From an uncultured archaeon (GTDB lineage Archaea > Asgardarchaeota > Lokiarchaeia > Sigyniarchaeales > SOKP01), in the NCBI GenBank assembly GCA_964632315.1, contig CAZWEM010000010.1, positions 1-64,000 on the forward strand: a stretch of 64,000 nt of DNA. Direction: 5' to 3'. Each line of letters starts with the position of its first letter. Position 1 is the first letter of the stretch. The notes beneath the pieces are model-generated. The model searched no databases. It worked only from the letters and a program-made list of their open reading frames with translations, and had not been told where the DNA came from. Shown here piece after piece: positions 23,360 through 47,051 of the stretch. The translations under genes were made by a program, and so were the position numbers.

Positions 23360-23461
23360 GCGCGAGTGGTTTAGTGGTATAACGACACGCTCACACCGTG
23401 TAGGTCGAGGGTTCAAACTTATTGAAAAAGCTTCAATCTGGAACAATTCCCTCCTTGCGCA
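23360..23461 (+). tRNA. tRNA-Val(CAC) with a 30-nt intron at position 58/59 (T-loop); CCA not encoded
   Basis: Acceptor GCGCGAG/CTTGCGC+A, D-arm GTTT..TAAC, anticodon arm ACACG-CTCACAC-CGTGT, T-stem GAGGG/CCCTC; T-loop TTCAATT restored on removing 23417-23446. Confidence 0.93.
23417..23446 (+). other. BHB tRNA intron at a non-canonical position
   Basis: Central helix GTTC/GAAC, bulges AA^A and AA^T, internal stem ATTGAA/TTCAAT. Confidence 0.9.
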
Positions 23462-26030: not shown

Positions 26031-26653
26031 ATAATAAAATTTAAAGTTGTAGTCGCCGGTGCTAAAAATTAATCCCGAATCTATCGGATATTGAGCAAGA
26101 CGTAGGGAAAACCTCCCTAATTAGGCGCTACGCAACAGGAAAGTTTGATAAGTCAACTTTGTCTACGATAGGTGTCGATTTTGAAACTAAAAAGGTAATT
26201 GTGGATGACATAGAGATCCTACTAAACATATGGGATTTTGCTGGTGAAAAAAAATTTAGATTATTATTACCTTCTTATGTTTCTGGGGCATCTGGGGCTT
26301 TAATTCTATATGACATCACAAATCGAGAGTCATTAAATGATCTTCACGATTGGATAAAAGTTATAACTTCGGTTCCAAACAGTCCCAAAACTAAAATCTT
26401 GGTTGAAGCAAAAATTGATTTAGAAGAACAAAGAGAAGTAAGTACGGAAGATGCTAAAATGTTTTTTGAAAAATACGGTTTTAAAGGAGATATAATTGGA
26501 ACGTCTTCAAAAACGGGTAAAAACGTTGAAACTGTTTTTGAAATGCTTGGACGTGAAATTTTGGAAAGTTCACTTAAAAAATGCCCTAACTGTGGTAAAT
26601 TATATCCCTTGGAATTAAAATTTTGCCAATATTGTGGACAAAAAACAAAATAA
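26031..26653 (+). CDS. Rab-like small GTPase with C-terminal zinc ribbon; intron-split, exons ~26031-26066 and 26099-26653 (start uncertain)
   Basis: Spliced product KFKVVVAGAK|DVGKTSLIRRYATGKF..STIGVDF..WDFAGE..AKID..TSSKTG..CPNC..CQYC; the ORF track start at 26159 lacks the P-loop. Confidence 0.85.
26067..26098 (+). other. Putative BHB-type intron (32 nt) in the GTPase P-loop
   Basis: Contains an in-frame TAA and shifts frame; relaxed central helix GCTA/GAGC, bulges AA^A and AA^G, internal hairpin; excision gives GAKDVGKT. Confidence 0.8.
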
Positions 26654-45342: not shown

Positions 45343-46380
45343 ATGAAAGCGGCTTACATTCTCAAACATGGAGATCTAAATAATTTAATCGTTGGAGATT
45401 TAGATCAACCAAATATTAGTGAAAAAGAAATTTTAATTGAAACCAAGTTCAGTGCTCTCAATCATATTGATCTTTTTATCATAAAAGGATGGCCAGGATT
45501 AGAATTGAAAATGCCTCATATTTTAGGGAGTGATGCGAGTGGAGTCGTGGCTGAAGTGGGTTCATCTGTAGCTACTGTTAAAAAAGGAGATAGAGTAGTG
45601 ATCAACCCAGGTTTAAGTTGTGGAACTTGTGATTTCTGCCTTTCTGGAAAACAGAACTTCTGTAAAAATTTTTCAATTATGGGAGAAAATCAATGGGGAA
45701 CCCATGCTGAGTACTTTGTATTACCCGAAGTGAATGCCATAAAACTACCTTTAGATGTGAATTATGAATCTGCAGCTGCTGCTCCTTTAACATTCTTGAC
45801 TGCTTGGAGGGCATTAAAAAGTCAAGCAAACCTTCAGAATGGAGAAACAATAGTTATTCACGGTGCAGGAGGAGGTGTATCTACTGCGGCTATACAAATA
45901 GCTAAATTTTTAGGTGCAACTGTAATTACCACAACAAGTAGTGTTAAGAAGGTTGAGATAGCAAAAAAATTGGGTGCTGATTTTGTGATTAATTATAATG
46001 AAGATCCAAATTATGATGCTTATATATATAAAAATATAATGAATCGAGAGGGCGTCGATGTTGTATTAGATAGCGTGGGTAAGCACACATTTAAAAAGAG
46101 TTTAAGATTGCTTAAACCGGGTGGTCGTATGATTATACCGGGATCTACCACTGGTCCGATGAGTGAAGTAGATCTTAGACAAATATTTTGGAAACAACTA
46201 GAAATTAAAGGCACAACAATGAGTAATCAAAGTGAATTTAGAGAGGTCATGAAACTAATCTTTAAGGCAAAGTTAAATCCAGTAATAGATAGAATTTATC
46301 CCTTGAGTGAGATCAAAGAAGCTGAAGAATACCTCCAAGAGGGAAAACAGTTTGGAAAAGTTTTACTGAAAATTAAGTAA
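45343..46380 (+). CDS. Zinc-binding MDR-family dehydrogenase
   Basis: PHILGSD, CGTCDFC...C structural Zn site, GAGGGV, FGKVLL. Confidence 0.92.
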   Translation: MKAAYILKHGDLNNLIVGDLDQPNISEKEILIETKFSALNHIDLFIIKGWPGLELKMPHILGSDASGVVAEVGSSVATVKKGDRVVINPGLSCGTCDFCLSGKQNFCKNFSIMGENQWGTHAEYFVLPEVNAIKLPLDVNYESAAAAPLTFLTAWRALKSQANLQNGETIVIHGAGGGVSTAAIQIAKFLGATVITTTSSVKKVEIAKKLGADFVINYNEDPNYDAYIYKNIMNREGVDVVLDSVGKHTFKKSLRLLKPGGRMIIPGSTTGPMSEVDLRQIFWKQLEIKGTTMSNQSEFREVMKLIFKAKLNPVIDRIYPLSEIKEAEEYLQEGKQFGKVLLKIK

Positions 46381-47051
46381 TAATTCCAAATTGGTTTCGC
46401 GTGAATTTCAATACCTTTTGCGAAATAATGGATTCAAATCCCCCGTAAAAATGGTCTGCACCCTCAATAATAAATTTTGATTTTGGTTCCATGTAAGAAT
46501 CGTAATGGAAGTCAAATCTATCAAAAGAAGCAATATTATCCTTATCTCCTTGAATAAAAAATTTAGGTTTTGTAGTTTGGGTTGATTCCTTAAATCCTTC
46601 TCCCATAAAGTCCCAAGGAAAAGATATTGCACAGAAACCTATGACTATTTCGGAATAATTGACAAGGCTACATCCAATAGCAGCTCCATACGAGTATCCA
46701 CATATTAAAATCTTATCAAAATTTTCATTAGTCAAATAATCAATGCAAGTTTTAACATCTGTTAACTCTCCATTTCCTTCATATTGTTTACCAGCTGATT
46801 TTCCTACTCCTCGAAAATTAAAACGTAGACATGAAATATTATTTGTTAGTAATTCATTAAATATGCTCGATATTACATTATTATACATATTACCCCCATA
46901 TTTTCCCTTTCCTTGAGAAAGTCAAGTGAAATTGAGGATGGGGGTGGCAAAGTAATACTATTTTATTTATTTGATTTGTCTTCTTACGAGAAATTTCAGC
47001 TTCTAAAACATTATCTTCTCCTTTAATTATTATGTTTTTAGAGTCAAGCAT
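46373..47051 (-). CDS. Alpha/beta-fold hydrolase, intron-split (exons 47051-46933 and 46901-46373; 215 aa spliced)
   Basis: Exon 1 MLDSK..LEAE..LLCHPHPQ joins exon 2 YGGNMYNNV..RFNFRGVGKS..GYSYG..QGDKD..GADHF. Confidence 0.9.
46902..46932 (-). other. Putative BHB-type intron (31 nt) in the hydrolase gene
   Basis: Central helix UCCU/GGGA, bulges CA^A and AA^A, intron stem UUUC(A)CUUGA/UCAAGGAAA; the unspliced frame stops at TAA. Confidence 0.88.

What the first reader, a model, noticed from the sequence alone, without database searches (positions are those of the whole stretch)
46895..46945. 31-nt BHB intron inside the HPHPxxGGxM motif of an alpha/beta hydrolase
Seen on the minus strand: CAC CCC CAT CCT CA^ATTTCACTTGACTTTCTCAAGGAAAGGGAAA^A TAT GGG GGT AAT ATG. 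Central helix UCCU/GGGA, 3-nt bulges CAA and AAA, a 9-bp intron stem, and exon pairing CCCC/GGGG. Cutting after the second base of each bulge removes 31 nt and restores HPHPQYGGNMYNNV, joining a 40-codon exon (ATG 47051) missed by the ORF track. Unspliced RNA stops a few codons past the intron. This is the cleanest mRNA intron here.
Basis: partly seen in the sequence, partly recalled or inferred. Interest (0 to 1): 0.9.

Follow-up and report, generated by a model that had tools for sequence, protein, structure and literature searches.

The report
tRNA-type mini-intron in Asgard hydrolase gene
A 31-base hairpin insert splits an otherwise healthy enzyme gene of an Asgard (Loki-type) archaeon, and in every comparative test it behaves like a tiny intron cut out of the mRNA by the tRNA-splicing enzymes, which papers report for only one archaeal protein gene (cbf5); RNA proof is still missing.

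Summary
On the minus strand, 31 nt (46902-46932) sit inside the HPHPxxGGxM motif of an alpha/beta hydrolase gene and put the first 39 codons (ATG 47051) out of frame with the remaining 175.

- 37 orthologous loci from the same Asgard genus and from metagenomes carry an insert of 30, 31, 33 or 34 nt at this site. Every one breaks the frame, by a shift or by an in-frame TAA/TAG. 79 orthologous loci have no insert.
- In 34 of 34 distinct sequences, cutting after base 2 of both 3-nt bulges restores HPHPQ(Y/F)GG.
- Eight stem pairs show compensatory changes.
- Silent exon positions pair only where the insert is present.
- Both exons are under purifying selection (dN/dS 0.11-0.21). The insert changes far less than silent sites.
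- Intron-less genes nested among intron-bearing ones look like precise losses.
- The genome encodes two EndA paralogues and RtcB.

Weak points:
- In this species the strict BHB fold lies 5.1 kcal/mol above the predicted best fold.

Earlier notes of this scan report the same kind of mRNA intron elsewhere in this genome and in other Asgard genomes. Verdict: a new member of the cbf5-type pre-mRNA intron class.

The parts
46933..47051 (-). Exon 1: ATG 47051-47049, 39 codons plus the first two bases (CA) of the split Gln codon. Encodes MLDSK...VLLCHPHP.
   Evidence: it aligns to the N-terminus of intact orthologues. dN/dS against close relatives is 0.13-0.21.
46902..46932 (-). 31-nt intron, from the third base of bulge 1 to the second base of bulge 2.
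   Evidence: Single copy in the genome. Only 1-5 of 31 positions differ from relatives whose silent-site divergence dS is 0.5-2.
46373..46901 (-). Exon 2: an A that completes the CAA (Gln) codon, then YGGNMYNNV... through the stop codon. Contains the GYSYG nucleophile elbow, the Asp and the His.
   Evidence: PF20408 and PF12146; best solved relative 3trd_A, E 1.3e-21. dN/dS 0.11-0.14.
46935..46938 (-). Central helix H, 5' strand UCCU (exon: last base of the His codon plus the Pro codon CCU).
   Evidence: The Pro codon is CCT in 33 of 33 intron-bearing loci against 14 of 29 close intron-less loci. Relative L124 has CCC, which keeps the pair as C-G.
46932..46934 (-). Bulge 1, CAA. Predicted 5' cut between 46933 and 46932.
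46908..46931 (-). Intron hairpin (inner helix h'): UUUC-A-CUUGA, loop CUUUC, UCAAG-GAAA.
   Evidence: 6 of its 9 pairs show compensatory changes across orthologues.
46904..46907 (-). Central helix H, 3' strand GGGA (intron).
   Evidence: invariant in 29 of 29 aligned sequences.
46901..46903 (-). Bulge 2, AAA. Predicted 3' cut between 46902 and 46901.
   Evidence: The third bulge base varies (A or G) and becomes the synonymous third base of the Gln codon.
46893..46900 (-). Outer helix h, 3' strand UAUGGGGG (Tyr-Gly-Gly codons). It pairs with CCCCCA at 46939-46944.
   Evidence: 4 of 6 positions pair in register here and 5 of 6 in most orthologues. Silent third positions covary (A-U / G-C).
46939..46944 (-). 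Outer helix h, 5' strand CCCCCA (His-Pro-His codons).

Best explanation
The 31 nt at 46902-46932 (minus strand) are an archaeal bulge-helix-bulge (BHB) intron inside the coding sequence of a serine alpha/beta hydrolase. The proposed mechanism has five steps.

1. The gene is transcribed with the insert.
2. The exon codons for His-Pro (..U CCU) pair with intron GGGA to form the 4-bp central helix. The intron hairpin forms the inner helix. The Pro (CCN) and Gly (GGN) codons of the HPHP..GG motif form the outer helix.
3. The splicing endonuclease EndA cuts after the second base of each 3-nt bulge (CA|A and AA|A). Here EndA has two paralogous subunits: one resembles crenarchaeal catalytic subunits and the other appears to lack the catalytic His.
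4. RtcB joins the exons, and probably circularises the 31-mer.
5. The mRNA then reads ...HPHPQYGGNM... and yields a 215-aa enzyme. Unspliced RNA gives only a 53-aa peptide.

Shown here: the anatomy, conservation, covariation, selection on both exons, precise intron-less orthologues, and the presence of the enzyme genes. Inferred, not shown: cleavage and ligation themselves, the enzymes responsible, and the fate of the intron.
For: 1. Exact anatomy. Exon 1 and exon 2 align end to end with intact orthologues, with only the split Gln codon between them.

2. Same-site inserts in 37 orthologous loci: 17 of the 23 same-genus genomes that have the gene, plus metagenome and assembly contigs. Lengths are 30, 31, 33 and 34 nt. 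Each either shifts the frame or carries an in-frame TAA/TAG. 79 loci lack the insert.

3. The BHB rule (4-bp H, two 3-nt bulges, an adjacent inner helix of at least 3 bp, cut after bulge base 2) restores HPHPQ[YF]GG in 34 of 34 distinct sequences.

4. Covariation: 90% of cells are paired, 8 pairs have changes on both sides, 0 of 500 shuffles reach the observed score, and every slid register is worse.

5. Silent exon sites are constrained only when the insert is present.
- Pro-1 third base pairs with Tyr third base in 26 of 33 loci with the insert and 8 of 29 without.
- His-1 third base pairs with Gly-1 third base in 29 of 33 with and 16 of 29 without.
- Pro-2 is CCT in 33 of 33 with and 14 of 29 without.

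6. Purifying selection in this lineage: dN/dS is 0.13-0.21 in exon 1 and 0.11-0.14 in exon 2. The intron differs at 1-5 of 31 sites while dS is 0.5-2.

7. All 36 intron-bearing loci then in hand keep an ATG-initiated exon 1 of about 35 codons.

8. Intron-less genes nested inside intron-bearing clades (L019, L047, L108) carry the predicted junction. L047 has CAG where its sister L052 predicts CA|G.

9. The insert appears in independent assemblies of close relatives from ENA, JGI and Logan, so it is not an assembly artefact.

10. The machinery is present. There are two EndA paralogues, whose best solved relatives are the crenarchaeal catalytic subunits 3p1z_B, 2cv8 and 2zyz_B for one and 1a79 for the other, and one RtcB.

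11. Similar inserts of 30-32 nt seen here break a TBP gene, a LeuS-like gene and a small GTPase P-loop of the same genome.
Against: - There is no RNA evidence of any kind.
- In this species the strict hBHBh' conformer is 5.1 kcal/mol above the MFE. The median for orthologues is 2.1, and the 4-bp H is part of the unconstrained MFE in only 6 of 29.
- The in-register outer helix has two adjacent mismatches here.
- A second BHB register one base away (H3' = AGGG) is equally good for the central helix but would leave a frameshift. Only the outer helix and two natural variants (L124, L107) argue against it.
- The central helix is invariant, so covariation does not test it, apart from the U-to-C change in L124.
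- The covariation counts come from related sequences and are not independent.
- My ab-initio genome scan found no excess of BHB-joined ORFs over offset controls, although its background was too high for it to be informative.
Confidence: 0.85

Rival explanations
1. Dead gene: the 31 nt are a neutral insertion (a footprint of a small hairpin element) and the hydrolase is a pseudogene.
For: The frame is broken. Gene callers annotate only the 171-aa C-terminal piece. This copy sits on a long terminal branch in the tree (0.61).
Against: dN/dS is 0.11-0.21 in both exons against relatives that share the insert. Exon 1 is intact in all 36 loci checked. The insert is kept across silent divergence dS above 2 and is itself more conserved than silent sites. 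The long branch reflects sparse sampling: relatives at 86% and 80% identity carry the same intron. The insert is single copy, not a repeat family.
Confidence: 0.03
2. Recoding during translation: ribosomes bypass (hop over) the insert or shift frame, as in T4 gene 60, and no RNA is cut.
For: A stable hairpin sits directly after the last exon-1 codon. Bypassing would also explain why both exons are conserved.
Against: There is no matched take-off and landing codon. CAA or CCU has no partner just before UAU, either here or in the orthologues. No stop codon follows the take-off codon. Insert lengths of 30, 31, 33 and 34 nt cannot all be handled by one frameshift. The conserved features, two 3-nt bulges around a 4-bp helix and exon-exon pairing, are those of an endonuclease substrate, not of a bypass signal.
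Confidence: 0.03
3. Split enzyme: the two ORFs are translated separately (53 aa plus 171 aa) and assemble non-covalently. In this species the exon-1 stop (TAA) lies one base before the ATG of exon 2, which could allow re-initiation.
For: The TAA-T-ATG arrangement at 46892-46886. The second ORF starts at a conserved Met.
Against: That arrangement is not conserved: in the 30- and 33-nt forms the stop lies in the hairpin loop, more than 20 nt upstream. The tails encoded by the insert differ in every lineage. The break would remove Q-Y-G-G-N from the conserved HPHPxxGGxM loop, which is continuous in the solved homologue 3trd. This reading also fails to explain the RNA covariation or the silent-site constraints.
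Confidence: 0.03
4. The insert is removed from RNA, but not by EndA and RtcB: either by another nuclease and ligase pair, or with a regulatory role for the competing slipped fold (a splicing switch).
For: The MFE fold differs from the strict BHB, by 5.1 kcal/mol here. The RNAalifold consensus shows a 2-bp centre instead of the 4-bp H.
Against: The natural variant L124 (U-to-C in the Pro codon) keeps the BHB helix but breaks the alternative centre. The BHB rule gives the right product in 34 of 34 sequences. No other archaeal system is known that excises roughly 30-nt RNA segments precisely (general knowledge). No covariation supports a second conformer.
Confidence: 0.05

Closest known systems
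BHB intron in the cbf5 (pseudouridine synthase) pre-mRNA of Crenarchaeota (Desulfurococcales, Sulfolobales; PMC2738675 and the earlier work it cites)
   Same: A short intron inside a protein-coding sequence, with a bulge-helix-bulge motif built partly from exon sequence. It is removed by the tRNA-splicing endonuclease and a ligase. Its distribution among relatives is patchy, with gains and losses. The hosts have a two-subunit, broad-specificity EndA.
   Different: A different gene (a non-essential alpha/beta hydrolase, not cbf5) and a different phylum (Asgard/Promethearchaeota). Splicing here is inferred from comparison only, whereas cbf5 splicing was shown experimentally. According to what I saw and to earlier notes of this scan, this genome carries many such inserts rather than one.
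Non-canonical tRNA introns of Asgard archaea and Thermoproteales (PMC11291895; bioRxiv 10.64898/2026.10.13.758758)
   Same: The same size class (about 15-40 nt), the same BHB or relaxed-BHB geometry and the same enzymes. The preprint reports two EndA paralogues consistent with an (alpha-beta)2 enzyme in 44 of 60 Asgard genomes, as found here.
   Different: Those introns are in tRNA genes. This one is in an mRNA, where the exon half of the motif must also encode protein, and where unspliced RNA can be translated into a truncated product. Neither paper reports introns in protein-coding genes.
Translational bypassing element of phage T4 gene 60
   Same: A short non-coding gap with a hairpin inside an ORF, and conserved coding sequence on both sides.
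   Different: No matched take-off and landing codons, no stop after the take-off codon, and the gap length varies among orthologues. The conserved features are those of an endonuclease substrate.

Membership tests
Archaeal BHB (EndA-type) intron | [quoted passage not shown] | tested here: met
   UCCU/GGGA (three Watson-Crick pairs plus one G-U) with bulges CAA and AAA. Found in 34 of 34 distinct orthologous sequences. L067 has CCUC/GGGG with bulges AAA and UUU.
Archaeal BHB (EndA-type) intron | Flanking helices h (exon-exon) and h' (intron) directly next to the bulges | tested here: inconclusive
   The inner helix is met (9 bp, covarying). The outer helix pairs at only 4 of 6 positions in register in this species and 5 of 6 in most orthologues. 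The strict conformer is 2.0-5.1 kcal/mol above the MFE. This amounts to a relaxed form on the exon side.
Archaeal BHB (EndA-type) intron | Cutting at the symmetric bulge positions yields the functional product | tested here: met
   Frame and the HPHPQ[YF]GG motif are restored in 34 of 34 sequences. The junction equals that of intron-less orthologues.
Archaeal BHB (EndA-type) intron | The structure is maintained by compensatory evolution | tested here: met
   8 pairs have changes on both sides and 0 of 500 shuffles reach the score. Silent exon positions covary only where the intron is present.
Archaeal BHB (EndA-type) intron | The host encodes a splicing endonuclease and an RtcB-type ligase | tested here: met
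   PF01974 hits at C28 (103 bits) and C8 (70 bits); PF01139 hit at C26 (568 bits). Loss of the catalytic His in the second paralogue was judged by eye only.
Archaeal BHB (EndA-type) intron | The intron is absent from the mature RNA (spliced junction, circular intron) | not testable with these tools
No spliced-form contig or protein was found.
cbf5 pre-mRNA intron (Crenarchaeota) | Located in the cbf5 gene of Desulfurococcales or Sulfolobales | tested here: not met
   The host gene is an alpha/beta hydrolase (PF20408/PF12146) of an Asgard archaeon (source names). It is the same kind of intron but not the same intron.
Alpha/beta hydrolase, Abhydrolase_11 / COG2945-like (host gene) | Pfam match above the cut-off; HPHPxxGGxM loop; GxSxG nucleophile elbow; Asp and His | tested here: met
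   PF12146 scores 28.1 bits and PF20408 27.1 bits, against a cut-off of 27 for each; these are borderline because exon 2 was scanned alone. 3trd_A matches at E 1.3e-21, with GYSYGA aligned to GFSFGA, GDKD to GDQD and DHF to SHF.

The most novel reading that the evidence does not exclude
This intron is one visible case of routine, genome-wide EndA-dependent mRNA splicing in this Asgard genus. Protein-coding genes, including essential ones such as TBP, would carry BHB mini-introns of about 30 nt that are inherited for long periods. These introns would constrain silent exon sites and be lost precisely, which would be expected if spliced RNA is copied back into DNA. Prokaryotic relatives of eukaryotes would then already live with interrupted protein genes, and with the problem of ribosomes meeting unspliced mRNA.
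Probability: 0.55. Interest if true: 0.92.

Novelty: new member of a known kind. Interest (0 to 1): 0.8.

Why it matters
In the papers I could search, enzymatic (BHB) splicing of an archaeal protein-coding mRNA is documented only for cbf5 in Crenarchaeota. This is a second, unrelated gene, in the archaeal group closest to eukaryotes, with unusually rich comparative evidence:
- 37 intron-bearing and 79 intron-less orthologous loci;
- four intron lengths;
- compensatory changes;
- silent-site constraints in the exons;
- apparent precise losses.

It shows how a coding motif rich in Pro and Gly codons (CCN/GGN) can supply the exon half of the splicing motif.

There is also a practical consequence. 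Gene callers truncate such genes: 18 of the 120 best database hits are 138-171 aa, about 40 residues short of the ~210-aa intact form. Asgard proteomes are therefore systematically mis-annotated wherever these introns occur.

If the phenomenon is general in this lineage, it becomes testable how cells without a nucleus cope with introns in mRNAs.

Tried and rejected
I did not try to get round this.

2. A spliced/unspliced protein pair. P0120 (167 aa) is 100% identical to P0031 (209 aa), but both loci turned out to be intron-less DNA with a different start call. This was a false lead.

3. A search for full-length proteins carrying the exon-1 peptide of the most abundant intron-bearing lineage found nothing. 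That is weak evidence.

4. Ab-initio genome scan. 51,444 BHB-like sites were filtered for ORF joining and coding score. The correct splice offset gave no more hits than wrong offsets: for example 78 against 59-81, and 2148 against 1961-2163. The true intron failed the first coding threshold, and junctions between neighbouring genes swamp the signal. The scan is uninformative, neither for nor against.

5. Repeat or mobile element. The intron has no second copy in the genome.

6. The strict column-wise BHB projection gave misleadingly poor energies, 7-19 kcal/mol above the MFE. I replaced it with constrained folding.

7. ARAGORN finds no tRNA in the window, although Rfam detects a tRNA broken in its T-arm.

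8. Considered and rejected: pseudogene, translational bypass, programmed frameshift, stop-codon readthrough, split enzyme and assembly artefact. See the rival explanations.

Full report
**What is in the sequence**

On the minus strand an ORF starts at ATG 47051. It reads MLDSKNIIIKGEDNVLEAEISRKKTNQINKIVLLCHPHPQ, continues with 13 unrelated residues and stops at TAA 46892-46890. A second ORF (46888-46373, 171 aa) starts at the Met of ...GGNM... in a frame shifted by one base.

The second ORF matches the alpha/beta-hydrolase families PF12146 and PF20408. It also matches the solved hydrolase 3trd_A (E 1.3e-21), with its first residues aligned to residue 43 of that 208-aa protein. The GxSxG elbow, the Asp and the His are all in place.

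Removing 46932-46902 (31 nt) joins CCU CA to A UAU GGG and gives HPHPQYGGNM. Exon 1 and exon 2 then align end to end with intact 209-216-aa orthologues, and only the split Gln codon lies between them.

**Is the shape alone significant?**

No. A loose BHB definition matches 51,444 places in the 4.45-Mb genome. That definition was a 4-bp helix with at most one G-U, two 3-nt bulges, at least 3 inner pairs, and at least 4 of 6 outer pairs. The local fold has a z-score of only -2.5. The case rests on comparison with orthologues.

**Orthologues**

The genome is an Asgard archaeon. The closest named homologues are labelled Promethearchaeota, Lokiarchaeota or Hodarchaeota.

- I searched 40 related genomes and JGI metagenomes, and looked up the assemblies that encode the closest database proteins. 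After parsing this gave 116 loci in which the motif region can be read.
- 79 loci have exactly two codons between HPHP and GG. These are intron-less.
- 37 loci have an extra 30, 31, 33 or 34 nt at the same place.
- Within the genus, 17 of the 23 genomes that have the gene carry the insert. None of the 12 genomes from other genera of the order does.
- The 31- and 34-nt forms shift the frame. The 30- and 33-nt forms carry an in-frame TAG or TAA, usually in the hairpin loop. No form can be translated through, and no single frameshift or readthrough mechanism fits all four lengths.
- All 36 intron-bearing loci in hand keep an ATG-initiated exon 1 of about 35 codons upstream of HPHP.

**Selection**

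I compared this gene with its three closest relatives (L124, L126, L128; 66-86% protein identity). All three carry a 31-nt insert.

- dN/dS is 0.13-0.21 in exon 1 and 0.11-0.14 in exon 2.
- The insert differs at only 1, 2 and 5 of 31 positions, while synonymous divergence is 0.5, 0.7 and about 2.

So the gene is not dead. Exon 1 is part of the product, and the insert itself is under constraint. These relatives come from independent ENA, JGI and Logan assemblies, which rules out an assembly artefact.

**RNA structure**

I aligned 29 distinct insert-plus-flank sequences (A2) and counted pairs for the BHB model.

- 90% of cells are paired.
- 8 of 19 pairs have changes on both sides.
- 0 of 500 shuffles reach the observed covariation score.
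- Every slid register scores lower.

The central helix UCCU/GGGA is invariant in that alignment. Relative L124 has CCC for the Pro codon, which turns the U-G pair into C-G.

A direct enumeration shows that a 4-bp helix flanked by two 3-nt bulges and an adjacent inner helix, cut after bulge base 2, restores HPHPQ[YF]GG in 34 of 34 distinct sequences. L067 carries an unrelated 30-nt insert whose BHB is shifted by one base (CCUC/GGGG, bulges AAA and UUU). It still gives the same junction.

**Exon constraints**

The exon half of the motif is made of coding sequence.

- With the insert, the second Pro codon is CCT in 33 of 33 loci and the second His codon is CAT in 33 of 33. In close intron-less orthologues the figures are 14 of 29 and 25 of 29.
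- Two silent third positions on either side of the insert pair with each other in 26 of 33 and 29 of 33 intron-bearing genes. In intron-less ones they pair in only 8 of 29 and 16 of 29. The pairs include A-U to G-C switches, such as CCA/UAU against CCG/UAC.

These counts come from related sequences and are not independent. Even so, the direction is what an exon-exon helix predicts.

**History**

A maximum-likelihood tree of 68 spliced proteins needs 4-6 changes of intron state.

- Intron-less genes are nested inside intron-bearing clades: L019, L047 and L108.
- They carry exactly the predicted junction. L047 has CAG TAT where its sister L052 predicts CA|G UAU.
- The shared insert ends suggest one old gain followed by several precise losses. 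I could not test that order of events.
- L067 suggests turnover or a second gain.

**Machinery**

The genome has two EndA-family genes.

- C28 (207 aa): its best solved relatives are the crenarchaeal catalytic subunits 3p1z_B, 3ajv_B, 2cv8 and 2zyz_B.
- C8 (205 aa): its best relative is 1a79. By eye it lacks the catalytic His.

The genome also has one RtcB. Two subunits fit the broad-specificity (alpha-beta)2 type, as a 2026 preprint reports for most Asgard genomes.

**Weak points**

1. There are no RNA data.
2. The strict BHB conformer is not the predicted optimum. It lies 2.0-5.1 kcal/mol above the MFE, and this species has the worst value. A slipped 8-bp C-run/G-run helix competes with it. 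RNAalifold draws a 2-bp centre rather than the 4-bp helix.
3. A second register one base away is equally good for the central helix and would leave a frameshift. Only the outer helix and the natural variants L124 and L107 exclude it.
4. My ab-initio genome scan was uninformative.

**Rivals**

- A pseudogene is contradicted by the selection analysis.
- Translational bypass lacks matched take-off and landing codons, and does not explain the bulge geometry or the variable lengths.
- A split two-chain enzyme is not supported. The stop/start arrangement is not conserved, and the break would remove part of a continuous catalytic loop.
- RNA removal by an unknown system cannot be excluded, but nothing calls for it.

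**Context**

- a roughly 30-nt hairpin insert with a TAA between the two TBP repeats;
- a 30-nt insert with a TAA inside GYD|FGLPAE of a LeuS-like gene;
- a 32-nt insert in the P-loop of a small GTPase in this window;
- a tRNA broken in its T-arm.

Earlier notes of this scan describe the same class of mRNA intron elsewhere in this genome and in other Asgard genomes. Some of those notes claim RNA contigs that lack the intron. I did not check those claims.

In the literature I could search, BHB introns in archaeal protein genes are documented only for cbf5 (PMC2738675). The two Asgard intron papers deal with tRNA genes only.

**Verdict**

This is a BHB-type mRNA intron (confidence about 0.85). 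It is a new member of the cbf5-type class, in a new gene and a new phylum. The comparative support is strong, and direct RNA proof is still lacking.

Noticed in passing
window 26067-26098 (+): A 32-nt insert with an in-frame TAA splits the P-loop of a small (Rab-like) GTPase: ...VVVAGAK | DVGKTSLIRRY. It contains a short hairpin (CCGA/UCGG). It looks like the same kind of mini-intron.
   Followed up: partly
window 23367-23422 (+) and the bases after it: Rfam tRNA match (25.3 bits, below the gathering score) that stops in the T-arm. ARAGORN reports no tRNA in the whole window.
   Followed up: partly
G000 C18:19036-19115 (L131 about 1790-1830): The TBP gene is split between its two repeats by a hairpin insert of about 30 nt (AACUUAAU...AUUAAGUU) with TAA in the loop. 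Removing 30 nt restores ...IQNIVASGDL.... The canonical bulge rule that I tried by hand gave 28 nt, not 30, so its exact motif needs separate work.
   Followed up: partly
G000 C41:25450-26499 (L135): A LeuS-like class I synthetase gene has a 30-nt insert (ISQ*VKYHKS) between ...PMGYD(S) and FGLPAENAAI. A second leuS without stops lies on C37; the assembly's contamination estimate is 8.6%.
   Followed up: partly
L067:753-812 (metagenome contig Ga0114923_10049813): The same hydrolase site carries an unrelated 30-nt intron whose BHB is shifted by one base (CCUC/GGGG, bulges AAA and UUU) and is more canonical. Its closest relatives carry the usual 33/34-nt intron or none. This points to intron turnover or an independent gain.
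   Followed up: partly
One search hit list (P0001-P0120): 18 of the 120 best database hits are 138-171 aa, about 40 residues short of the ~210-aa intact form. Gene callers start them at the Met after the intron, so public Asgard proteomes hold truncated versions of this enzyme.
   Followed up: partly
window 46886-46892 (-): In this species the stop of the unspliced exon-1 frame (TAA) lies one base before the ATG of the downstream ORF (TAATATG). This is not conserved in orthologues and is probably a coincidence.
   Followed up: yes
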